Made by a program: the position numbers and the translations under genes
Part shown: piece after piece, positions 12,942-43,200 of the stretch
Numbering within the stretch: the stretch's first letter is position 1
How the letters are laid out: each line of letters opens with the position of its first letter
The notes under the pieces: generated by a model
Told to the model about the DNA's origin: nothing
Databases searched by the model: none
Seen by the model: the letters and a program-made list of their open reading frames with translations, nothing else
DNA from: Escherichia coli
Lineage (GTDB): Bacteria > Pseudomonadota > Gammaproteobacteria > Enterobacterales > Enterobacteriaceae
Strand: one strand, 5' to 3'
Assembly: GCF_030384885.1 (NCBI RefSeq)
Contig: NZ_CP128613.1
Length of the DNA: 64,000 nucleotides

Positions 12942-14474
12942 ATGCCCATGAGTATGTCATCCATACCGTCGTCCTCCCAATCCGGGAAGCTCTATGGCTG
13001 GGTCGAAAGAATTGGTAACAAGGTTCCCCATCCTTTTTTGCTCTTTATCTATTTGATTATCGTACTCATGGTGACGACGGCAATTTTGTCGGCCTTTGGC
13101 GTCAGTGCGAAAAACCCGACCGATGGTACACCAGTGGTCGTGAAAAACCTGCTCAGTGTGGAAGGATTACACTGGTTTTTACCCAATGTGATTAAAAACT
13201 TTAGCGGTTTTGCCCCACTAGGCGCGATCCTGGCGCTGGTTTTAGGTGCTGGTCTGGCGGAACGCGTCGGCTTACTGCCAGCGCTAATGGTTAAAATGGC
13301 ATCGCATGTTAATGCCCGCTATGCCAGTTATATGGTGTTGTTTATTGCTTTTTTTAGCCATATATCATCCGATGCGGCGTTAGTTATCATGCCACCGATG
13401 GGCGCATTGATTTTTCTGGCGGTGGGCAGGCATCCAGTGGCAGGTTTACTGGCCGCCATTGCAGGCGTCGGTTGCGGCTTTACGGCTAATTTACTGATTG
13501 TCACAACCGACGTGTTGCTGTCGGGGATCAGCACGGAGGCTGCGGCTGCGTTCAATCCGCAAATGCACGTCAGTGTAATTGATAACTGGTATTTTATGGC
13601 CAGCTCCGTAGTCGTACTGACGTTTGTTGGCGGCCTGATAACCGACAAAATCATTGAGCCACGGTTAGGTCAATGGCAGGGAAACAGCGATGAGAAACTG
13701 CAGACATTGACCGAAAGTCAGCGTTTTGGTTTACGCATATCAGGTGTCGTATCGCTACTTTTTATTGCCGCAATTGCGCTGATGGTGATCCCGGAAAATG
13801 GGATATTGCGCGATCCGATTAATCACACCGTGATGCCATCCCCCTTTATTAAAGGTATCGTGCCACTGATCATTCTCTTTTTCTTTGTGGTTTCGCTGGC
13901 TTATGGCATCGCTACCCGCACAATTCGACGTCAGGCGGATTTACCGCATTTAATGATTGAACCGATGAAAGAGATGGCGGGATTTATCGTGATGGTTTTT
14001 CCCCTGGCCCAGTTTGTCGCCATGTTTAACTGGAGCAACATGGGGAAATTCATCGCTGTGGGGCTGACCGATATACTCGAAAGTTCAGGGCTTAGCGGCA
14101 TCCCGGCGTTTGTCGGTCTGGCGTTGCTTTCCTCTTTCTTATGCATGTTTATCGCCAGCGGTTCCGCAATCTGGTCGATTCTGGCCCCCATTTTTGTACC
14201 AATGTTTATGCTACTTGGCTTTCACCCGGCATTTGCGCAAATCCTCTTTCGTATTGCCGACTCATCCGTATTGCCTTTAGCACCGGTATCTCCTTTTGTT
14301 CCACTGTTTCTTGGATTCCTGCAACGCTACAAACCAGACGCGAAACTGGGTACTTACTATTCGTTAGTTTTGCCCTATCCACTTATCTTTTTGGTGGTAT
14401 GGCTGCTGATGTTGCTGGCGTGGTATCTTGTCGGTCTGCCGATAGGTCCGGGGATTTACCCTCGTTTGTCTTAA
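12942..14474 (+). CDS. abgT: p-aminobenzoyl-glutamate transporter AbgT
   Basis: About 508 aa polytopic membrane protein; exact start (12942 or 12948) is uncertain. Confidence 0.9.
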
Positions 14475-18676: not shown

Positions 18677-20290
18677 TCAATGTTTCACAATATACATAGT
18701 CCGGCTATACGCCACATCTTCCGGGTTATTAATGGGATAACCTTTCAGCCACGGCTTGATTAATCGTCCATTGGTATATTGATAAATTGGTGCAATCGGT
18801 GCTTGCTCCATGAGGATTTTTTCTGCCGCGTTGTAATCGGCATTACGCGCTTTAACGGTATTTTCCGTCGATGCCTGGGCCAAAACTTTGTCGTAGGCCG
18901 GGTTGTTAAAACGTGAAATGTTCCCTGAATGCGTTGACGTTAATAATGTCAGGAAGGTGGAGGGTTCATTATAATCCCCCACCCACGAGGCGCGGATAAC
19001 ATCAAAATTACCTGTATTACGACTATCGATATAGGTTTTCCATTCCTGATTTTGCAGTTTGACATCTACACCAAGGTTCTTTTTCCACATCGATGCCACA
19101 GCAATCGCAATTTTTTGATGGTTTTCTGAAGTATTATACAAAAGCGTCAGCTTCAGCGGTTTTTGCGGACCATAACCGGCTGCGCTCAACAAAGTTTTTG
19201 CCTGCGCATTCAGTTCTTCCTGACTCATTTGTTCAAACGGCGAAGGCTCCGGCGTGAATCCGGCAGTAACATCTGGCGTAAAATGCCACGCTGGTTTTTC
19301 GCCCGTCCCCAACACTTTTTCGGTCATCAGGCGGCGATCTATCGTCATACTTAATGCCAGACGAACGCGCTGATCTGCCGCCGGCCCTTTTTGCGTGTTA
19401 AACGCATAATAATAGGTCCCGAGCTGCGGCGGTGTATAAACCTGCCCCGGAATATCCTTCAACAGCTTCTGATACATATTTTTGGGGAAGGATTCGGTGA
19501 TATCAATATCCCCCGCGAGATAACGCTTAGTGGCTGCGGATTCCTGATTAATTGGCAGGAAGGTCACTTTTTGCAACACCGTTTTGGCGTTATCCCAATA
19601 ATGAGTATTTGGCACCACGACCAGTTTTTCATTGACTACACGCTCTTTAAGAACATAAGCGCCATTGCCGACCAGATTTCCGGGTTTCGTCCACTCTTTC
19701 CCGCTTTCTACGTTAGCTTTTTGCACCGGGAAGAAGGCAAAATTGGCTGTTAAATTCACAAACCACGGCAACGGTTTATCAAGCTGGATTTTCAAAGTAC
19801 GGGCATCAACCGCGGTGACGCCTAGCTGATCAGGCGTAGCTTTACCATCAATAATCGCCTGTGCGTTGTTGATTCCCGCCAGCGCGGCAAACCAGGCAAA
19901 CGGCGACAACGTTTTTGGGTCAACCAGACGTTGCCAGCTGTAGACAAAATCCTGTGCCGTTACCGGTGTGCCATCCGCCCATTTTGCGTTATCGCGCAGG
20001 GTGAAAGTCCAGATACGGTTGTCATTACTTTTCCACTGAGTCGCAACGCCGGGGACAATCTCCCCTTTCTCGTTCTGATTCACCAGTCCTTCAAAAAGAT
20101 CGCGAATGACCTGAATCTCTGGCAGACCCACGGCTTTAGCGGGATCCAGCGACGCAGGCTCATCTTTAATATGGCGCACCAGCTCCTGCTTCTCTGCCAG
20201 TACTGTGCCGCTCGGAACTTCTGCAGCATACGAAAGAGAAATGCTGCTGACCAACAGCGCACAACACGTGACTGAAACAGAGTGCTTCAT
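18677..20290 (-). CDS. mppA: periplasmic murein tripeptide-binding protein MppA
   Basis: 537 aa; signal peptide then an OppA-like family 5 solute-binding protein. Confidence 0.9.
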   Translation of the reverse strand: MKHSVSVTCCALLVSSISLSYAAEVPSGTVLAEKQELVRHIKDEPASLDPAKAVGLPEIQVIRDLFEGLVNQNEKGEIVPGVATQWKSNDNRIWTFTLRDNAKWADGTPVTAQDFVYSWQRLVDPKTLSPFAWFAALAGINNAQAIIDGKATPDQLGVTAVDARTLKIQLDKPLPWFVNLTANFAFFPVQKANVESGKEWTKPGNLVGNGAYVLKERVVNEKLVVVPNTHYWDNAKTVLQKVTFLPINQESAATKRYLAGDIDITESFPKNMYQKLLKDIPGQVYTPPQLGTYYYAFNTQKGPAADQRVRLALSMTIDRRLMTEKVLGTGEKPAWHFTPDVTAGFTPEPSPFEQMSQEELNAQAKTLLSAAGYGPQKPLKLTLLYNTSENHQKIAIAVASMWKKNLGVDVKLQNQEWKTYIDSRNTGNFDVIRASWVGDYNEPSTFLTLLTSTHSGNISRFNNPAYDKVLAQASTENTVKARNADYNAAEKILMEQAPIAPIYQYTNGRLIKPWLKGYPINNPEDVAYSRTMYIVKH

Positions 20291-20472
20291 AAGTTACCCT
20301 CAAACCTGCGTTAATAATCATGCGTAATTATTTGTTTCGCCTTAAAGAAATGCAAACAACTTCCGGCAAAAAAGTGATACAAGATCGATAACATAGCGTT
20401 GAAGAAAAGGATTTGATAATCCGCAAAATTTGCACAACACTGCCTGTAATACTTCCTGAACCAGAGACGATC

Positions 20473-21201
20473 ATGACCGTAACTCGCCCACGCGCCGAAC
20501 GCGGCGCATTTCCGCCCGGTACAGAACATTACGGACGTTCATTATTGGGCGCGCCTTTGATCTGGTTTCCGGCCCCAGCCGCCAGTCACGAAAGTGGTTT
20601 GATTCTGGCTGGCACCCACGGTGATGAAAACTCTTCGGTCGTGACCCTCTCCTGTGCTCTGCGGACATTGACACCGTCTTTGCGCCGCCATCATGTGGTG
20701 CTGTGTGTGAATCCTGACGGCTGCCAGTTAGGGTTACGGGCCAATGCTAATGGCGTGGATTTAAATAGAAACTTTCCGGCAGCAAACTGGAAGGAAGGTG
20801 AAACGGTTTATCGCTGGAACAGCGCCGCTGAAGAACGTGATGTCGTTTTACTGACAGGTGACAAACCTGGCTCCGAACCTGAAACTCAGGCGCTGTGCCA
20901 GCTTATACATCGCATTCAACCTGCCTGGGTGGTCTCATTCCACGATCCACTGGCCTGTATTGAAGACCCCAGACACAGCGAATTAGGTGAATGGCTGGCC
21001 CAGGCGTTTGAATTGCCACTGGTCACCAGCGTCGGTTATGAAACGCCTGGCTCTTTCGGCAGTTGGTGTGCGGATCTCAACCTGCATTGCATCACCGCAG
21101 AGTTTCCGCCCATCTCCTCCGACGAAGCCAGCGAAAAATACCTCTTTGCGATGGCTAACTTGCTGCGCTGGCATCCTAAAGATGCAATGCGCCCGTCGTG
21201 A
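20473..21201 (+). CDS. mpaA: murein peptide amidase A (M14 zinc carboxypeptidase-like)
   Basis: 242 aa from the ATG at 20473 (MTVTRPRAERGAF); HGDE zinc-binding motif. Confidence 0.88.
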   Translation: MTVTRPRAERGAFPPGTEHYGRSLLGAPLIWFPAPAASHESGLILAGTHGDENSSVVTLSCALRTLTPSLRRHHVVLCVNPDGCQLGLRANANGVDLNRNFPAANWKEGETVYRWNSAAEERDVVLLTGDKPGSEPETQALCQLIHRIQPAWVVSFHDPLACIEDPRHSELGEWLAQAFELPLVTSVGYETPGSFGSWCADLNLHCITAEFPPISSDEASEKYLFAMANLLRWHPKDAMRPS

Positions 21202-22259: not shown

Positions 22260-22763
22260 ATGTCACAAACCGTTCATTTCCAGGGCAACCCGGTTACAGT
22301 CGCCAATTCCATCCCGCAGGCGGGTAGCAAAGCGCAGACTTTTACTCTCGTGGCAAAAGATCTGTCTGACGTCACCCTCGGTCAGTTTGCGGGTAAACGC
22401 AAAGTGCTGAACATTTTCCCGAGTATTGATACCGGTGTTTGCGCCGCATCAGTACGTAAGTTTAACCAACTGGCAACCGAGATCGACAACACCGTTGTGC
22501 TGTGTATCTCTGCCGATCTGCCGTTCGCCCAGTCTCGTTTCTGCGGCGCAGAAGGTCTGAACAACGTTATCACCCTCTCCACTTTCCGTAACGCTGAATT
22601 CCTGCAAGCCTACGGTGTGGCAATTGCTGATGGCCCACTGAAAGGTCTGGCAGCGCGTGCCGTTGTGGTTATCGATGAAAATGACAATGTGATTTTCAGC
22701 CAGCTGGTTGATGAAATCACCACCGAGCCGGATTACGAAGCAGCTCTGGCTGTACTGCGCTAA
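22260..22763 (+). CDS. tpx: thiol peroxidase Tpx
   Basis: 167 aa; peroxidatic Cys motif (TGVCA) and atypical 2-Cys Prx fold. Confidence 0.93.
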
Positions 22764-22772
22764 ACAACTGTG

Positions 22773-22810
22773 CCGTTCACTGAATCACCACCGGTGAACG
22801 GCAGTTTTTG
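22773..22810 (+). terminator. Rho-independent terminator downstream of tpx
   Basis: Hairpin ccgttcac...gtgaacgg followed by cagtttttg. Confidence 0.65.
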
Positions 22811-22916
22811 ATCTACCAGTCCCATTATTTTCCAGAGTTCCTGCCACTATTCCCCCTAACCGTTGTGCATTAAGATTGCTCTTTGCCATTATTGGCCCAG
22901 CGGAGTGATGACTATT

Positions 22917-24959
22917 ATGGATGATAAACAAATTACGGTCTGGCTTAAACACAATTGCTGTTCAACGGACATTCCTGCCATTGCCGAGGCACTAACGAAC
23001 CATGCAGAATGGCTTTTAGAGCTAGCGCCAGATCCTATTGAACAAGGTTGTTCATGTTTACCGCCGACAGCTGCAGCCGGTATTTTTCTTGGCGCAGCGG
23101 CGATGGTTCACTGCGGCGAGGCTAGTGGTGCAGAAACCTGGCTCGAAGCAGCCATTACTGATTACCATTTCTTTAATCCAAATGGATATAGTTCATGGAG
23201 AGGCAGTACGCCTGTTTTTACAGCATTATCGCGTTACCCGGCATTAAGAATGGTGTTATTTAACGCCGCTTGCGCAATGGAAGACTGGAATAAAGCATCC
23301 GCTGTTCTTGAATCGCTTTTCCATGCCAGCGATGTAACGGAAGATAACCCTGTCGCCCCCAATTTTACCCCTTATGCGCTGAAAGCGTTTATCGCGGATT
23401 ACCACCCGTTAGGGCCTGCTTATTATGATGAAACCTGGTTGCTGGCAAAACAAGCGTGGTTAATTAATGCGGGCGTTCTGGATGAGCGAACCTGTAATAC
23501 CTGGAAGCAATATACCCGCCATTTGCGCCATTTGATCCATAATGCACAGTTTTCCGATGCGATCTCTTTTGTACGCAGTAAAAAAGAACCATTAAATCAT
23601 ATCCATACCTACTCAGACTTTTATCTCTATGCGATTGGTTTATTTTCTTCTACTGATCAGCTAAGTGAAGCGCTAACCTGGGTAAAACAATTAATCCGCA
23701 ACAATGATGGTCATTTCCATGATCTTTTCGTTTCAACTGGCGCAAAGCGCCGAATAAAGCCTGAACTTAGTACCTTGCTGAATAATCTCTTGTACAGCGC
23801 AGAGTTTCAGGCGTTGCAGGATAAATATCTCACCGTCGGACATGATGTTGTGCATTCTGGTCCCTTCATGTCACTTTATGAAAAGGTTCTTGGCGGTAAG
23901 TCCCGAAAGCGCTGCGCGATTAGTCGAAAATTAATCTCACCCGGCGAAGCGGTTTATGAATATCGTCAGCTGGATAGTGTGGAATATATTGCAGCGAAAG
24001 CGGCCTTTCAGACATCTGAGCTAAATAATATCGCCCACCGGCATCATAATGATAGTTATCAGTGGCATGAATTTGCCGTCCAATGGCCTCGTCGGGGTTC
24101 ACTTTCTCACCCAGATATTGCCCGTTATTTGTTTGAGCGCCAGGAAGGAAAATGCTTTGATGCCGCAGAGTTTATACAACTGATTGCGGAACCGTTTGTC
24201 TTTCCGATGCGTTTCATATGGGTTGCCGGGTTGTCCTTTGAATTACATCAGTATCCGGATGCCTATTTCGTAAATGACAATATGGCGGGTGAATTTGTTA
24301 ATCTCTGCTGGATGGCTATGAAATGCGGACATGCTGGCGACATTTTCAAACAACTGGCCCACGAGCCGCATGACGTTGCTGACCCTATTTACGCCATGCT
24401 CGCCACGTTTGACCGCGCTGATTGCCGTAGCGCCGCCGCCGCGCACTTTGGACAACCGGAACTACCGGAAATAATGGCACTGGCTTTCAGTTCGAGGTTA
24501 TCGCTCGACAGCGTCCTTACCATCGCTGAGTTTGGTAAAAATCAGCCGCGATTTTCACATGCGCTAGCAACGGCCCTCCTGCGTTACAACCTGCACATCT
24601 ACTCAAACTATATGCCGCAGGTTAACTGGTACCTTCAGGGGCTGGAACACTATGCTTTGGCAAAAGGCGGTCAACTTTTAAATTTCTTTGTGCATATTCC
24701 AGAACAAATTCCCGTTCTGGCGACCATGCTGGAACATGGCGTATTAGTGCGTGGGATCGGTGAAGGTGCCTATGATGGTTATGATAATTCAGCAAATTCA
24801 TTTCATCATGCCGCCGTGATGCACTGCCTCACGCACGCGCCGGAAAAAGTCCGCTACTGGATGGAAACACCCTGGATTCAGAACTATTTAGTGAATGCGC
24901 CGCTGCGTCAAACGGCGCGCCATGTGGAAGCCTGGCATAAAAAGTTTGGCATCAAATGA
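22917..24959 (+). CDS. hypothetical protein, about 680 aa, no family recognised; probably cytoplasmic, Cys/His-rich N-terminus
   Basis: Single long ORF (table entry 22863..24959, which starts at a TTG); the ATG at 22917 has ggag 11 nt upstream. No signal peptide or TM segment by eye. Sits between convergent tpx and tyrR where recalled K-12 order has no gene. Confidence 0.6.
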   Translation: MDDKQITVWLKHNCCSTDIPAIAEALTNHAEWLLELAPDPIEQGCSCLPPTAAAGIFLGAAAMVHCGEASGAETWLEAAITDYHFFNPNGYSSWRGSTPVFTALSRYPALRMVLFNAACAMEDWNKASAVLESLFHASDVTEDNPVAPNFTPYALKAFIADYHPLGPAYYDETWLLAKQAWLINAGVLDERTCNTWKQYTRHLRHLIHNAQFSDAISFVRSKKEPLNHIHTYSDFYLYAIGLFSSTDQLSEALTWVKQLIRNNDGHFHDLFVSTGAKRRIKPELSTLLNNLLYSAEFQALQDKYLTVGHDVVHSGPFMSLYEKVLGGKSRKRCAISRKLISPGEAVYEYRQLDSVEYIAAKAAFQTSELNNIAHRHHNDSYQWHEFAVQWPRRGSLSHPDIARYLFERQEGKCFDAAEFIQLIAEPFVFPMRFIWVAGLSFELHQYPDAYFVNDNMAGEFVNLCWMAMKCGHAGDIFKQLAHEPHDVADPIYAMLATFDRADCRSAAAAHFGQPELPEIMALAFSSRLSLDSVLTIAEFGKNQPRFSHALATALLRYNLHIYSNYMPQVNWYLQGLEHYALAKGGQLLNFFVHIPEQIPVLATMLEHGVLVRGIGEGAYDGYDNSANSFHHAAVMHCLTHAPEKVRYWMETPWIQNYLVNAPLRQTARHVEAWHKKFGIK

Positions 24960-24996
24960 ACGTTGCCGCTGCGCCTGAACGGCGCAGCCAGCACAA

Positions 24997-26538
24997 TCAC
25001 TCTTCGCTTTTCTTCTGGTTTAAGCCATATTCCCGCAACTTATTGGCAATCGCGGTATGCGAAACGCCGAGACGTTTTGCCAGTTTGCGCGTGCTGGGAT
25101 AATTGCGATAAAGCTGAGTTAATACCGAGCGTTCAAAACGGCTGGTGATTTCGTCCAGCGAACCTTCCATCGCATCTTCGCCCACGGCTACCGTTGCGGC
25201 GTCATAATCCGGTAACAAAATATCCTGTGGACGTAGCTCATAACCGTCCAGTTGTGTCAGTGCGCGATAAATAGCGTTCTTTAACTGCCGCACATTTCCC
25301 GGCCACGCATAACGCGTAAGTACAGTATTCAGGTCAGCGGCCAGTTTCGGACGCGGCACGCCCTGCTCGTCGGCAAAGCGGGCGACGAACAGCTCGGTTA
25401 ACGGCATGATGTCCTGCGGACAGTCACGTAGCGGCGGCAGATTGAGCGTCAACACGTTCAGACGATAATAGAGATCTTCACGGAAAACGCCTTTTTGCAC
25501 CAGTTCGACTAAATTCTTCTGCGTAGCGCAAATAACCCTTACATCGACATGCACTTCATGATCTTCACCAACTCGACGGAAAGTACCATCATTAAGGAAA
25601 CGCAGTAATTTCGCCTGCATCCTTGGCGACATCTCGCCTATCTCATCTAACAGCACCGAACCACCGTTCGCCTGCTCAAAGAACCCTTTTTTACCTTCCG
25701 GAGCATGACCAAACAGTTCACTCTCGACCGCATCTTCCGGTATAGACGCGCAGTTCAGCGCCAGGTAAGGTTTGCCCGCTCGTGGGCTTGCCTGATGGCA
25801 GGCGTAGGCAAAGAGATCTTTACCTGTACCGGTGTCACCCGTAATCAGCAACGGCGCGCTTAGCATCGCCAGTTTCTGCGCCTGTTCGACAACATGCTTC
25901 ATTTTCGGGCTGACGGCGACAATTTGACTGAAGGCACTGACGTCCTGTGCAGCGACATTCTGCAACTGACGGCCCATACGAATCGTCGAGCGCAACATCA
26001 CCACCGCACCGGTCAGAACGTGTTGATCATTTTCATCCTGAAGATAAACAGGCGTAATCTCCATCAGGAAATTCTGCCCATTAATAACGACATGCTCGTT
26101 ATGCGAGTCTTGCGGTTCGCTTTCCAGCCAGCGTAAAAAATTAAAGCCGTTAATTAATTGCGCGGCGGTATGGTTGCGCAGGCGATCCAATTTTTGCCCA
26201 AAAAGCTGACAGCTCGCCGGGTTCGCCATATCCACTTTGCTTTTCATATCAACAGAAAGCACAGGCTCAGGCAACGCCTCCAGTAACGCGCTCAACGCCA
26301 GATGCTCACGTTCGGAAGGCATCCACGGAACAGTGCGCACATCGGTAACACCTGCAATACGGCGTATTTCGGCCATCAGACTGCTGAAACTTTCAAATTC
26401 CAGTTCGGCAAAATTGAGGTAGATTCGCCCAATGGGGTCAATCTCAATACCGCGTAAATCAATGCCTCTTAGCACGAGTAGATCGAGTAATTCGCGGGTC
26501 AGACCGAGTCGGTCTTCACAAAAGACTTCCAGACGCAT
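24997..26538 (-). CDS. tyrR: transcriptional regulator TyrR (sigma54-type AAA+ enhancer-binding family)
   Basis: 513 aa from the ATG at 26538 (MRLEVFCEDRLGLTREL); central AAA+ domain (GDTGTGKD, GAFTGA-like) and C-terminal HTH. Confidence 0.93.
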   Translation of the reverse strand: MRLEVFCEDRLGLTRELLDLLVLRGIDLRGIEIDPIGRIYLNFAELEFESFSSLMAEIRRIAGVTDVRTVPWMPSEREHLALSALLEALPEPVLSVDMKSKVDMANPASCQLFGQKLDRLRNHTAAQLINGFNFLRWLESEPQDSHNEHVVINGQNFLMEITPVYLQDENDQHVLTGAVVMLRSTIRMGRQLQNVAAQDVSAFSQIVAVSPKMKHVVEQAQKLAMLSAPLLITGDTGTGKDLFAYACHQASPRAGKPYLALNCASIPEDAVESELFGHAPEGKKGFFEQANGGSVLLDEIGEMSPRMQAKLLRFLNDGTFRRVGEDHEVHVDVRVICATQKNLVELVQKGVFREDLYYRLNVLTLNLPPLRDCPQDIMPLTELFVARFADEQGVPRPKLAADLNTVLTRYAWPGNVRQLKNAIYRALTQLDGYELRPQDILLPDYDAATVAVGEDAMEGSLDEITSRFERSVLTQLYRNYPSTRKLAKRLGVSHTAIANKLREYGLNQKKSEE

Positions 26539-40042: not shown

Positions 40043-41335
40043 TTAGTGCTGTTCGATCAGTTCATCCAGCTTTTTCTGGCTCGCTTGCAGCGTGGTTGAG
40101 AGATCGGCTTTCCCCACGGTGACGTTATGCACCATTGAACTCACCACACCAGACCCCGTGACATCGCCCATGCGGGTAAAGTTTTTGTCCCCTACCGCAC
40201 CAAAGACCTGAATGTTTGGCAGTTCGCTAATCAACTGATTCGGCAAGTCTCCCAGCGCCTTAATCACGTCGTTATCTTTCCAGGTGGCAGTCGTCACAAC
40301 CGCTTTGTTAACCGGCAGCGCCGCGCCTGGCGACATCATCACCCAGTCGGCAATGTTGTCCGCCTGCTCCATAAAGGTGACAAATTTTTCTGCCGCTTCC
40401 GTCTCTTCGCTCTTTTGCCCGGCGGTAATGGTCAGCGAGGTCAACATGCCGTAGACCGCCGAGTTTTTCTCGGTTGGCACCACGAAACCGACATTTTTCG
40501 GGTCACCTTCTTTAATCACAGCCGGAAGGATATAGGTGGAGTAAATCGCCATCGGCGCGGTGCCGTTCATAAAGGCGTCTTTCACTTCCATAATGTCGTT
40601 AGAACCCGGCATGGTGTTGGCAGCAAGGTCGCGGTAATAGGTCAGCGCCTGCATCATCTCCGGCGTATCAAGGGTGATTTTGCCTTCGGCGTTAAAAACG
40701 TTGGCCTGATTGGATAACGCAAACTGGGAGAACGATTGTTCCGTCAGTACGCTTTCTGCCGTCGGAAGAGCAATACCGTATTTTTTATTCGCCGGATCGT
40801 TCAGTTTCTGTGCGACATCCAGCAACTGTTGCCAGTTTTTCGGCTCATCCAGCCCGGCTTTTGCCAGCACATCTTTGCGATACCAGATACCGCCAATCCA
40901 TGCGCTGACAGGAACACCAGTCCAGGCGCTACCATCTTCGGTGCGCACAATCCGTAGAACGCCGTCATAAAACGCGCCTTCACCGACATTACTGATGACC
41001 GTAGCAACCGCTTTGCGATCGATAAGCTGTTCTTTGTCCATCACTTTCGCGTAGTCATGGCTGGTTTCGATCACTTCCGGCAGCGAGCCGCTACGGGAAA
41101 GGGTGATGACTTTGGTGTTATAGGCATCTTCTTCCACCGGCACCTGTTTAACAGTGATGCCTGGGTTTTCTTTTTCAAAACGCGCAATTAACTGACTAAT
41201 TACCGCCTGGCGTTCCTGTTCCACCGAAGAATGCATAAACTCGATGGAGACATTCGTTTTATTTTCTTCTTTACAGCCTGAAATCAGGGCGCAGGAAACC
41301 AGTGCTGATAACAGCACGATTTTTGATTTAATCAT
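40043..41335 (-). CDS. ycjN: ABC transporter periplasmic sugar-binding protein
   Basis: 430 aa; lipoprotein-like signal (LSALVSCALISGC) and family 1 solute-binding protein. Confidence 0.88.
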   Translation of the reverse strand: MIKSKIVLLSALVSCALISGCKEENKTNVSIEFMHSSVEQERQAVISQLIARFEKENPGITVKQVPVEEDAYNTKVITLSRSGSLPEVIETSHDYAKVMDKEQLIDRKAVATVISNVGEGAFYDGVLRIVRTEDGSAWTGVPVSAWIGGIWYRKDVLAKAGLDEPKNWQQLLDVAQKLNDPANKKYGIALPTAESVLTEQSFSQFALSNQANVFNAEGKITLDTPEMMQALTYYRDLAANTMPGSNDIMEVKDAFMNGTAPMAIYSTYILPAVIKEGDPKNVGFVVPTEKNSAVYGMLTSLTITAGQKSEETEAAEKFVTFMEQADNIADWVMMSPGAALPVNKAVVTTATWKDNDVIKALGDLPNQLISELPNIQVFGAVGDKNFTRMGDVTGSGVVSSMVHNVTVGKADLSTTLQASQKKLDELIEQH

Positions 41336-41348
41336 GAGATGTTCCTTT

Positions 41349-43028
41349 TTATTTAATCCACATAACCTGCCAGGGGCGCAGCGTTATTTCATTACCCACT
41401 ATATCAACTTCACTAATCAGATCCCGACCGTGCAGGTCAGTAATATTTATATGCTGAATATTTTCACCGACATTAAACAATCCTGTCAGACAATTACCAT
41501 CCGCGTTGCTTCTTTGAATACGCATTACGGATGAATTAACCGTATCGATGGTAAAATCATTATCTGGATGAAACTCGTTATGACTGCGACGAATTTTAAT
41601 TAGTCGCGACAATTCATGATATACCGCGTGCCTTAACGTCGCTTTATTGTTCAGTTCGGTCGTGATCTCTTCGCTGGTGTATTTTTTACGGTTAATCGCA
41701 CGGTTATATCCCAGTTTTTCGACACCTGCGTAATCATTACGCGAGCCCAGAATACTTTGAATATATATCGCTGGCACACCGGGGAAAATTAACAAAATCG
41801 CATGGGCAAGGATAAACCGGGCACAGCGTTCTTCGTCACTGCAATCGCGATGGCTCAATGCGTCCATGTAGGTCACATTCATTTCATACGGACTGCGCGT
41901 ACCATCGGGATTATTTTTCCAGTTTACTAATGCCCCTTCCTGCTGTAACGCCTCGACTAGCGCTAATATCTCGCTTTCAGGCAACAAGCCTCGCAGTGGG
42001 TTAAGTCCAATACCATCATGAGACGCGAGGAAGTTAAACCAGGTGGTTTTGCTGGAAGGCAACGTCAGACTTTGCGCCCACTGGCACAGCGCCTCGACGT
42101 TCTGTTTTTGCACCGCATGTAACACCAGCGGCGGCAGTGAGAACTGGTACACCATATGCGCTTCGTCATCGCCGTTGCCAAAGTAAGCAATGTTGTCTTT
42201 ATGCGGGACATTGGTCTCAGTAATGATGACTGTCCCCGGCGCGACGCTATCAGTAATGGCGCGTAACAGTTTGATAATTTGATGTGTTTTATCCAGGTGG
42301 ATGCAACTCGTTCCCGGCTCTTTCCACATAAAGCCAACGGCATCCAGACGGACATACTCTGCGCCTTTTTCCAGGTAACACAACAGCACATCTACCATCG
42401 CCAGTAATACATCTGGGCTGCGATAATTGAGGTCAATTTGATCGTCGCTAAAGGTGGTCCATAAATGGCGCGTTGAATGATCGCGCATCTGGAATGGCGT
42501 TAATAACGGTAACGCACGCGGGCGAGTGACGGCGCTGAGATCGGTTTGCGGGTCAACGGCAATAAAAAAATCTTCAAAACCTGGCTGCTGTTGTAAATAG
42601 TTTTTAAACCATTCACTTTTTGCCGACATATGGTTGCAGACAAAATCAAACATTAAATGACTGCATTCACCGAGTTGCTGAATATCCTGCCACTCCCCCG
42701 CTTCACTGGCGACCTGATGATAATCAATTACCGAAAAGCCATCATCAGATGACCATGGATAAAACGGCAACAAATGAACATGTGAAAAAATGCTTTGCAG
42801 CCAGTGATGGTAAAACTGATTAAATGTGGGTAGTGGTTTTAAATCATTACTGTGAAATTGATCGGCATAGGTAATTAACACGACATCACTTTCATCCCAG
42901 TGTTTTTTACGTCGCTGTGTAATTAATCTTTTCGCACTCTCAAGACGCGTTACAAGTTTCTGTAAATGAGTCGCGGTAAATGTTCCACCGTAGATTTCGT
43001 CCAGGTAATCCGTAATTTTCTGTTTCAT
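41349..43028 (-). CDS. ycjM: glucosylglycerate phosphorylase (GH13 sucrose phosphorylase-like)
   Basis: 559 aa from the ATG at 43028 (MKQKITDYLDEIYGG); GH13 catalytic regions. Confidence 0.88.
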   Translation of the reverse strand: MKQKITDYLDEIYGGTFTATHLQKLVTRLESAKRLITQRRKKHWDESDVVLITYADQFHSNDLKPLPTFNQFYHHWLQSIFSHVHLLPFYPWSSDDGFSVIDYHQVASEAGEWQDIQQLGECSHLMFDFVCNHMSAKSEWFKNYLQQQPGFEDFFIAVDPQTDLSAVTRPRALPLLTPFQMRDHSTRHLWTTFSDDQIDLNYRSPDVLLAMVDVLLCYLEKGAEYVRLDAVGFMWKEPGTSCIHLDKTHQIIKLLRAITDSVAPGTVIITETNVPHKDNIAYFGNGDDEAHMVYQFSLPPLVLHAVQKQNVEALCQWAQSLTLPSSKTTWFNFLASHDGIGLNPLRGLLPESEILALVEALQQEGALVNWKNNPDGTRSPYEMNVTYMDALSHRDCSDEERCARFILAHAILLIFPGVPAIYIQSILGSRNDYAGVEKLGYNRAINRKKYTSEEITTELNNKATLRHAVYHELSRLIKIRRSHNEFHPDNDFTIDTVNSSVMRIQRSNADGNCLTGLFNVGENIQHINITDLHGRDLISEVDIVGNEITLRPWQVMWIK

Positions 43029-43200
43029 GTTGCCTTTCCGTGGTAGCGGTCCCATGAAACGAGAGACTACTCCGCAGAAAATAAACTGTCAATTGAGCAC
43101 AAGGGTTTTAGTCACGCAGGAAATCATTTTTTACCAGGGAAAAAGCGTATTTGTGAGCTGACGCAAATAATCTATGGGGATGTAAATAAGGTGTGACAGA

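What the first reader, a model, noticed from the sequence alone, without database searches (positions are those of the whole stretch)
22811..24996. Unrecognised ~2.0 kb gene between convergent tpx and tyrR
A single ~680-codon ORF fills the space between the tpx terminator and the tyrR stop. In the K-12 gene order as I recall it, tpx and tyrR are immediate convergent neighbours, so this looks like a strain-specific accessory gene inside an otherwise rigidly conserved core block. The protein has no signal peptide or TM helix by eye, a Cys-rich N-terminus (HNCCSTD, GCSCLPP, VHCGE), many His/Trp/Tyr, and none of the catalytic motifs I can recognise (no Walker A, HExxH or DEAD). Several stretches look more AT-rich than neighbouring core genes, which would fit horizontal acquisition. 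It is a single gene, not an operon; its function (defence, toxin-like, metabolic) cannot be called from sequence by eye.
Basis: partly seen in the sequence, partly recalled or inferred. Interest (0 to 1): 0.75.

Follow-up and report, generated by a model that had tools for sequence, protein, structure and literature searches.

The report
Rare uncharacterised gene, likely orphan immunity protein
A real 680-codon gene found in under 1% of E. coli genomes sits between tpx and tyrR; it belongs to a small unannotated protein family whose relatives in other bacteria repeatedly lie among toxin-immunity genes, so it is most likely a stand-alone protective protein against toxins injected by competing bacteria, though this has not been tested.

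Summary
A 680-aa CDS (22917-24959, +) fills a 2.24-kb segment that replaces the 54 bp between tpx and tyrR found in typical E. coli. Only 30-32 of 5,426 complete E. coli genomes carry it, always at this site, and about a third of the copies are split or hit by IS600. No library recognises it (Pfam, NCBIfam, PADLOC, PHROGs, PDB sequences). A profile search finds only 131 cluster representatives among 1.84 billion proteins.

No neighbouring gene is conserved across the family. In 6 of 13 independent loci, however, relatives lie among T6SS or polymorphic-toxin immunity genes (TsiV, Tli4_C, Tsi3, SUKH/SMI1_KNR4, DKNYY) or just downstream of a pretoxin-HINT remnant. One of these loci is a published Salmonella T6SS-associated islet site.

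Best reading (confidence about 0.45): an orphan immunity-type binding protein. Interest is moderate.

The parts
22758..24998 (.). Lineage-specific segment that replaces the 54-bp tpx-tyrR junction of typical E. coli
   Evidence: blastn and MAFFT against EDL933: homology ends at 22757 and resumes at 24999. Present in 30-32 of 5,426 genomes.
22768..22809 (+). Hairpin (10-12 bp stem, 13-nt loop) followed by TTTTT: a likely intrinsic terminator for tpx, different from the K-12-type terminator
   Evidence: Perfect 10-nt inverted repeat 22771-22780 / 22794-22803 (I21). RNAfold dG -20.6 kcal/mol. Sequence. The consensus scan missed it because the loop exceeds 8 nt.
22902..22905 (+). GGAG, a possible Shine-Dalgarno sequence 11 nt upstream of the ATG at 22917
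   Evidence: Read directly from the sequence. Inferred, not tested.
22917..24959 (+). CDS of the uncharacterised 680-aa protein (stop included)
   Evidence: The exact protein is on record on 58 public contigs as 'hypothetical protein'.
22917..23831 (+). N-terminal alpha-helical TPR/PPR-like repeat region (aa 1-305). It is accessory: absent from the ~355-aa core-only members and replaced by ankyrin repeats in two members.
23865..24011 (+). Small three-stranded beta module (aa ~317-365, motif GGKxRKRCxxSxxxIxPGE). It looks like a degenerate CCHC zinc-finger-like module: C333 is kept, while the other three ligand positions are S336, A360 and A363.
24012..24956 (+). C-terminal all-helical conserved domain (aa 366-680; motifs KCG[HY], ADPIYAMLATFD, RYNLHLYSNYxPQVxW, QLLxFFxHxPE) with no solved-structure counterpart
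24962..24992 (.). GC-rich hairpin between the stop of the new gene and the stop of tyrR, with no T-run on either strand
   Evidence: RNAfold dG -19.7 kcal/mol. Sequence.

Best explanation
The gene encodes a cytoplasmic, non-enzymatic binding protein from the gene pool of inter-bacterial conflict. It is most likely an 'orphan' immunity protein that neutralises, by direct binding, a protein toxin delivered into the cell by competitors through a T6SS, Rhs or another polymorphic-toxin system.

Shown:
- It is a real, rare, single-gene insert.
- It belongs to a small unannotated family with a TPR-like N-terminus and an autonomous ~370-aa core of unknown fold.
- Relatives recur in arrays of immunity genes.
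- It evolves under relaxed but purifying selection, and many E. coli copies are decaying.

Inferred:
- The TPR-like region and/or the core bind a cognate toxin and block it.
- The E. coli copy, having no toxin gene beside it, would protect only against toxins made by other strains.
- The small beta module descends from a CCHC zinc finger that has lost its metal ligands in the enterobacterial branch, so it probably serves as a structural or binding element and not as a metal site.

The toxin partner and any protective effect are unknown.
For: 1. Guilt by association in independent genomes. Six of 13 informative loci carry immunity or toxin markers next to a family member:
- Salmonella yegQ-locus islet, with TsiV. 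That locus was described, for its Typhi and Paratyphi C islet types, as a mosaic of T6SS/CDI genes with orphan immunity genes (PMC7400221).
- An enterobacterial contig with Tli4_C, an ankyrin protein and paralogous small ORFs.
- L026, with SUKH_6/SMI1_KNR4 directly downstream and DKNYY upstream in a same-strand array.
- L027, with DKNYY and Tsi3.
- A Sinorhizobium conjugative plasmid, with SMI1/KNR4 x2, DUF1963 x2 and DUF3396.
- L032, with a pretoxin-HINT remnant ending 182 nt upstream.
2. These arrangements match the 'heterogeneous polyimmunity loci' of Zhang et al. 2012, which also note SUKH arrays and ankyrin/TPR fusions to immunity domains (PMC3482391). Two family members carry N-terminal ankyrin repeats.
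3. Tandem paralogs occur in L011, one of them frameshifted.
4. Residues conserved across the family are mostly G, P, L, F, W and Y, with no invariant catalytic-type set.
5. There is no signal peptide or TM segment.
6. Population pattern: 0.6% of E. coli genomes, with 10 of 32 copies split or IS600-disrupted. dN/dS is 0.31-0.34 against 0.005-0.15 in flanking genes.
7. The family is absent from phage genomes and from antiphage-system models.
Against: - No family member was found directly downstream of an intact, identifiable toxin gene. The one pretoxin-HINT neighbour lacks a toxin domain and is missing from the sister contig.
- Seven of 13 loci, including the E. coli site itself, show no immunity-type neighbours.
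- 680 aa is large for an immunity protein.
- The core is well conserved across phyla (alignable over ~370 aa at 20-30% identity), which would also fit a conserved biochemical role.
- The family matches none of the Pfam Imm/Tsi/SUKH models.
- The association was not compared with a measured background rate.
- Expression in E. coli is unknown. A strong terminator precedes the gene, and the promoter scan found no site between the tpx terminator and the ATG.
Confidence: 0.45

Rival explanations
1. It is a conflict-system gene of another type, for example a single-gene antiphage or DNA-damage sensor. The zinc-finger-like module (PARP-type fingers sense DNA breaks) would detect nucleic acid, the helical domains would signal or sequester, and the co-location with immunity genes would only reflect general 'conflict islands'.
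For: A local structural match of the beta module to PARP-1 zinc fingers, with a full CCHC set in eight distant members. Sub-threshold PARP-1 sequence hits. One locus lies near a type I restriction HsdR gene and a UvrD-like helicase, and another near an AAA_14/DUF4143 ATPase. The fold is otherwise unknown.
Confidence: 0.15
2. It is itself a toxin or effector module of a polymorphic-toxin system.
For: Proximity to a pretoxin-HINT ORF in L032, and residence in T6SS-associated islets.
Against: It is always a separate ORF with its own conserved N-terminus. It has no PAAR, Rhs, VgrG, LXG or MIX trafficking domain. In E. coli it stands alone with no adjacent candidate immunity gene, which an active toxin would need. 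It has no catalytic-type invariant residues.
Confidence: 0.05
3. It is a housekeeping-type accessory enzyme or regulator unrelated to conflict, or in E. coli simply a functionless remnant drifting towards loss.
For: No conserved partner gene. Seven of 13 loci have ordinary metabolic or regulatory neighbours. A third of the E. coli copies are disrupted. Selection is relaxed.
Against: dN/dS of about 0.32 still indicates constraint, and intact 680-aa copies persist in lineages whose tyrR and ycjF differ at dS of about 0.2. There is no enzyme-like motif or fold match. The recurrence of immunity-type neighbours in six unrelated loci would have to be coincidence.
Confidence: 0.25

Closest known systems
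Orphan immunity genes in polyimmunity loci and acquired interbacterial defence (AID) clusters (Zhang et al. 2012, PMC3482391; Ross et al., bioRxiv 10.1101/471110; Salmonella SAIDI-1 and the related yegQ islets, PMC7400221)
   Same: Cytoplasmic protein with no cognate toxin gene in cis. Patchy, strain-specific distribution with frequent decay. Relatives embedded in same-strand arrays with SUKH/SMI1_KNR4, Tsi3, TsiV, Tli4_C and DKNYY genes. Ankyrin- and TPR-type repeats attached, as reported for immunity domains.
   Different: No sequence or profile match to any described immunity family. Much larger (680 aa) than typical immunity proteins. In E. coli it is a lone gene between core genes and not part of an array. 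No toxin partner is known and no protection has been shown.
PARP-type zinc finger (zf-PARP, Pfam PF00645)
   Different: The Pfam model does not match any member. The window protein keeps only the first Cys (C333; S336, A360 and A363 elsewhere). No DNA-binding evidence exists. The resemblance is local and weak.
TPR/PPR-like helical repeat scaffolds
   Different: Pfam gives no significant TPR call (best i-E-value 6.2). This region is dispensable in the family, since core-only members exist, so it does not define the family.
DUF4034 (Pfam PF13226) proteins, including the ~700-aa gene flanking the Salmonella yegQ islet
   Same: Similar length. Two distant AFDB relatives of the family are labelled 'DUF4034 domain-containing'. 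A DUF4034 gene lies a few kb from the Salmonella homolog.
   Different: None of 45 family members scanned hits PF13226. BLASTP and hhalign between the family and the Salmonella DUF4034 protein are negative (E 0.3-0.5).

Membership tests
Polymorphic-toxin / T6SS immunity proteins (functional class) | Encoded immediately downstream of, and co-transcribed with, a cognate toxin gene in at least some genomes | tested here: inconclusive
   In L032 a PT-HINT ORF ends 182 nt upstream, but it has no toxin domain and is absent from sister contig L033. No intact toxin was seen upstream in the 13 loci. SPC1575 (Rhs)-SPC1576 (TPR) in the Paratyphi C islet is a lead that could not be verified.
Polymorphic-toxin / T6SS immunity proteins (functional class) | Residence in polyimmunity or AID-type arrays with recognised immunity families | tested here: met
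   TsiV, Tli4_C plus Ank, SUKH_6/SMI1_KNR4 plus DKNYY, Tsi3 plus DKNYY, and SMI1/KNR4 x2 plus DUF3396. That is 5 loci, or 6 counting the PT-HINT remnant, out of 13. It is not met at the E. coli site itself.
Polymorphic-toxin / T6SS immunity proteins (functional class) | Binds and neutralises its toxin, protecting cells from intoxication | not testable with these tools
   Needs competition assays and binding experiments.
Polymorphic-toxin / T6SS immunity proteins (functional class) | Sequence membership in a described immunity family (Pfam Imm*, SUKH, Tsi/Tli/Tai and similar) | tested here: not met
   No Pfam hit in the query, in 35 diverse members or in 10 core-only members, apart from Ank in two fusions. 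No NCBIfam, PADLOC or PHROG hit.
zf-PARP (PF00645) | Match to the Pfam profile | tested here: not met
   No hit in the CCHC-bearing members. PDB profile search gives PARP-1 only at E of about 0.5.
zf-PARP (PF00645) | C-x2-C...H-x2-C zinc ligands | tested here: not met
   The window protein has C333, S336, A360 and A363. The full set is present in only 8 distant members.
zf-PARP (PF00645) | Fold similarity to solved PARP fingers | tested here: inconclusive
Known antiphage defence systems (PADLOC-DB v2) | Match to a defence-system protein model | tested here: not met
   0 families for the query and two homologs at E up to 1.
Mobile element cargo (IS, transposon or prophage) | Terminal inverted or direct repeats, an integrase or transposase, or presence on phages | tested here: not met
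   Only short chance-level repeats at the borders. No mobility gene in the insert. No phage hit and one distant plasmid hit.

The most novel reading that the evidence does not exclude
The ~370-aa core is a new protein fold that defines a new kind of single-gene conflict or sensing system. It would descend from a PARP-like CCHC zinc-finger protein and would not act as a passive toxin binder: for example, it could sense DNA breaks or a toxin's product and thereby protect the cell.
Probability: 0.12. Interest if true: 0.7.

Novelty: new member of a known kind. Interest (0 to 1): 0.42.

Why it matters
If the reading is right, this adds an unannotated and structurally unprecedented family to the catalogue of immunity proteins. 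It would also show that a lone immunity gene can persist for a long time between core genes of E. coli, outside any island. Such genes influence which strains survive contact-dependent killing in the gut. Finding its toxin partner would reveal an effector class currently invisible to annotation.

In practical terms, about 130 clusters of 'hypothetical proteins' in Escherichia, Salmonella, rhizobia, Bacteroidota and other groups would gain a testable function. The high-confidence core model with no PDB counterpart is a reasonable target for structure determination.

If the reading is wrong, the gene remains a well-defined orphan family with a clear domain map.

Tried and rejected
- Sequence libraries, all negative: Pfam (query, 35 members, 10 core-only members), NCBIfam, PADLOC, PHROGs and PDB sequences.
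- The DUF4034 link suggested by AFDB names was rejected by BLASTP, hhalign and the Pfam scans.
- Relatedness of upstream small ORFs: those in L009 and L016 are unrelated to each other, a joint alignment with the L003 ORF found nothing shared, and the L009 and L016 ORFs look like exported proteins, not toxin cassettes. I ran no further search on them.
- L026's 508-aa upstream gene is not a paralog.
- L034's upstream ORF is a solute-binding protein, not a toxin.
- The genome-contig scan gave only 2 loci and the metagenome scan only 4, because the degenerate patterns were strict.
- Searching the Salmonella paper's supplements for SPC1575/SPC1576 found nothing. A literature search for DUF4034 found no papers.
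- The scans found no promoter-like site between the tpx terminator and the ATG, no terminator-like site in the insert, and no Rfam match. No transposon-like ends were found.
- A recent horizontal import was considered and rejected on dS and on the shared junctions.

Full report
**1. What is there**

The six-frame ORF list shows one long ORF on the + strand, 22863..24959. The start consistent with the NCBI annotation of the nearly identical strain 2013C-4282 (WP_106907512.1, 'hypothetical protein', 680 aa) and with the N-termini of all close homologs is the ATG at 22917. A GGAG lies 11 nt upstream of it.

Directly after the tpx stop there is a perfect 10-bp inverted repeat with a 13-nt loop, followed by TTTTT (RNAfold dG -20.6 kcal/mol). 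This is a plausible tpx terminator and differs from the K-12-type one. A second GC-rich hairpin (dG -19.7) lies between the stop of the new gene and the stop of tyrR.

The promoter scan found no sigma-70-like site between the tpx terminator and the ATG. By eye, TTGTGC-18-CATTAT at 22863-22892 is at best a weak candidate. No Rfam family matches the region at E up to 1.

**2. Presence and absence**

- The flanks match 5,414 of 5,426 complete E. coli genomes. The gene itself matches only 32, and only 30 of those over at least 80% of its length. All are chromosomal and all lie between tpx and tyrR.
- Against the empty site of EDL933, homology stops at 22757 and resumes at 24999. About 2,241 nt replace 54 nt, and the tpx product ends AVLR instead of AVLKA. 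Four carriers checked share that 167-aa tpx form, and three of them have the identical protein WP_000084388.1.
- Only short, chance-level repeats sit at the borders, and no mobility gene lies inside the insert.
- Ten of the 32 copies are disrupted. Six are annotated as two ORFs; the split was confirmed in 2014C-3011, where the ORFs are 276 and 1,428 nt. Four carry IS600.

**3. Age and selection**

Between the window and two divergent carrier alleles (A34 and GF4-3):

| Gene(s) | dN | dS | dN/dS |
|---|---|---|---|
| New gene | 0.025-0.043 | 0.079-0.134 | 0.31-0.34 |
| ycjG, tpx, tyrR, ycjF | 0-0.010 | 0.041-0.229 | 0.005-0.15 |

The gene's silent divergence does not exceed that of its flanks, so it has diverged together with the locus and is old there. 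Its protein is under relaxed but still purifying selection.

GC is 47.1% and GC3 44.9%, against 51.0% for the window. That is low but not unique among window genes.

The whole window is 90-98% identical to EDL933 in 1-kb bins. Its tyrR-ycjF segment is at least 99% identical to only three genomes in the collection. The window therefore comes from a deep-branching E. coli lineage. 'Recent horizontal acquisition' is not the best description. A single old insertion followed by loss, or spread with the flanks by recombination, fits better, but I cannot choose between those.

**4. The family**

- No hit in Pfam, NCBIfam, PADLOC or PHROGs, and no hit to PDB sequences.
- A word-indexed search of 5.8 billion proteins found only ten clusters, in E. 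coli, Salmonella enterica and other bacteria, at 39-90% identity.
- A profile search of 1.84 billion cluster representatives found 131 hits. All named members are 'hypothetical protein'.
- Two N-terminal fusions carry ankyrin repeats. No other member has any Pfam domain.
- Several members of about 355 aa consist only of the C-terminal part. The region corresponding to residues ~306-680 is therefore an autonomous domain, and the N-terminal ~300 residues are accessory.
- There is no hit in 50,697 phage genomes and one hit among 72,556 plasmids.
- A pattern-based scan of 100,044 species-representative genomes returned two loci, though the patterns were strict.

**5. Structure**

I therefore describe this as a degenerate CCHC zinc-finger-like module with a PARP-finger-like shape, not as a zf-PARP domain.

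Family-wide conserved positions are mainly G, P, L, F, W and Y, with a few polar ones (K328, C333, R350, D415, R527, Y557, H560). No invariant catalytic-looking set emerges.

The protein has no TM or signal segment.

**6. Genomic context elsewhere**

No neighbour is conserved across the family, which fits a stand-alone gene. One theme does recur.

- In Salmonella the homolog lies in an islet between yegQ and a ~700-aa gene, together with a TsiV-family gene and IS fragments. That site is the 'yegQ locus' of Barretto and Fowler. They interpret the islets they describe there (Typhi and Paratyphi C types) as mosaics of T6SS/CDI genes, and the Typhi islet as rich in orphan immunity genes. The Paratyphi C-type islet contains an Rhs-core gene (SPC1575) followed by a 'TPR' gene (SPC1576) (PMC7400221). 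The L003 islet shares the IS1 InsA fragment with that type but otherwise differs from it. I could not verify that SPC1576 is the homolog.
- An enterobacterial contig has hrpA, a 171-aa exported ORF, the homolog, a Tli4_C fragment, small ORFs, an ankyrin protein and three ~285-aa ORFs.
- L026 has a same-strand array with DKNYY, then a 508-aa gene, then the homolog, then a SUKH_6/SMI1_KNR4 gene.
- L027 has DKNYY, Tsi3, small ORFs and then the homolog.
- A Sinorhizobium conjugative plasmid places the homolog among two SMI1/KNR4, two DUF1963 and one DUF3396 gene.
- L032 has a 261-aa ORF with a complete pretoxin-HINT domain (PF07591, residues 48-233) and only about 28 residues after it. It ends 182 nt upstream of a family member that aligns to the window protein at 27% identity over 484 residues (E 3e-45). 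In sister contig L033 the HINT cassette is replaced by unrelated DNA.
- L011 carries two tandem paralogs, the upstream one frameshifted within the beta module.

The other seven loci, including the E. coli site, show ordinary neighbours.

Arrays of unrelated immunity genes ('heterogeneous polyimmunity loci'), SUKH paralog arrays and ankyrin/TPR fusions to immunity domains are described by Zhang et al. 2012 (PMC3482391). Arrays of orphan immunity genes that protect gut bacteria are described by Ross et al. (bioRxiv 10.1101/471110).

**7. Interpretation**

The most economical reading is that this family belongs to the toxin-immunity gene pool and that the E. coli gene is an orphan immunity-type protein. 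It would be a cytoplasmic binder that blocks an incoming toxin, kept only where such toxins are met and decaying elsewhere.

The steps 'binds a toxin' and 'protects' are inferred. No intact cognate toxin was seen, the protein is unusually large for the class, and the enrichment was not measured against a background. I put this reading at about 0.45.

Rivals:
- A different conflict or sensing function built on the zinc-finger-like module (0.15).
- A non-conflict accessory function, or a drifting remnant (0.25).
- A toxin (0.05). This is unlikely because the gene stands alone and has no trafficking domain.

**8. Novelty and score**

The gene is not in any curated family, and its core has no solved structural relative. 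The kind of thing it most likely is, an orphan immunity gene, is well known. I rate it 'new member of a known kind' and give it moderate interest (0.42).

The most novel reading not excluded is a new fold defining a new single-gene sensing or defence system (probability about 0.12).

Noticed in passing
window 5500-52300 (whole alignable part): The window is only 90-98% identical to EDL933 in 1-kb bins. The lowest values, about 0.90-0.92, are at 33-36 kb (ycjT/ycjS) and 41-42 kb (ycjM). tyrR-ycjF is at least 99% identical to just 3 of 5,426 genomes. The window therefore comes from a deep-branching E. coli lineage.
   Followed up: partly
window 20290-20473 (between mppA and mpaA): About 3.9 kb present in EDL933 (pgrR, two alpha/beta-hydrolase genes and an SDR gene) is absent here, so mppA and mpaA are adjacent. 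Carrier strain A34 has part of that segment.
   Followed up: no
window 12948-14474 (abgT) and 40043-43055 (ycjN, ycjM): These genes are intact in the window and in strain 2013C-4282. In EDL933, abgT is split by IS1203, ycjM is frameshifted and ycjN has an internal stop.
   Followed up: no
window 22715-22725 and 22783-22793; 22768-22779 and 24976-24987: An exact 11-nt direct repeat, AATCACCACCG, occurs inside the tpx 3' end and again in the loop of the new terminator hairpin. A 12-nt imperfect inverted repeat links the two hairpins that bracket the insert. These may be recombination footprints or chance.
   Followed up: no
L011 3305-7484: Two tandem paralogs of the family. The upstream copy is frameshifted within the beta module into 358-aa and 344-aa ORFs, and the downstream copy (676 aa) is intact.
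   Followed up: yes
L032 2424-5771 and L033 334-2876: NAD-salvage genes lie directly upstream of the family member in two related metagenomic contigs: an ORF with nucleotidyltransferase- and Nudix-like sequence (nadM-like by my reading of the translation) and an NAMPT/nadV gene. A pretoxin-HINT remnant sits between them in L032 only; L033 has 937 nt of unrelated DNA there.
   Followed up: partly
L003 13114-17878: The Salmonella yegQ islet is bounded by a conserved minus-strand cluster that includes a 703-aa DUF4034 gene and a 238-aa DUF1266 gene of unknown function. The DUF4034 protein is unrelated to the family studied here by BLASTP and hhalign.
   Followed up: partly
L009 7449-7964 and L016 6486-6992: The small ORFs immediately upstream of family members have signal-peptide or lipoprotein-like N-termini, as many periplasmic T6SS immunity proteins do. 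They are unrelated to each other.
   Followed up: partly
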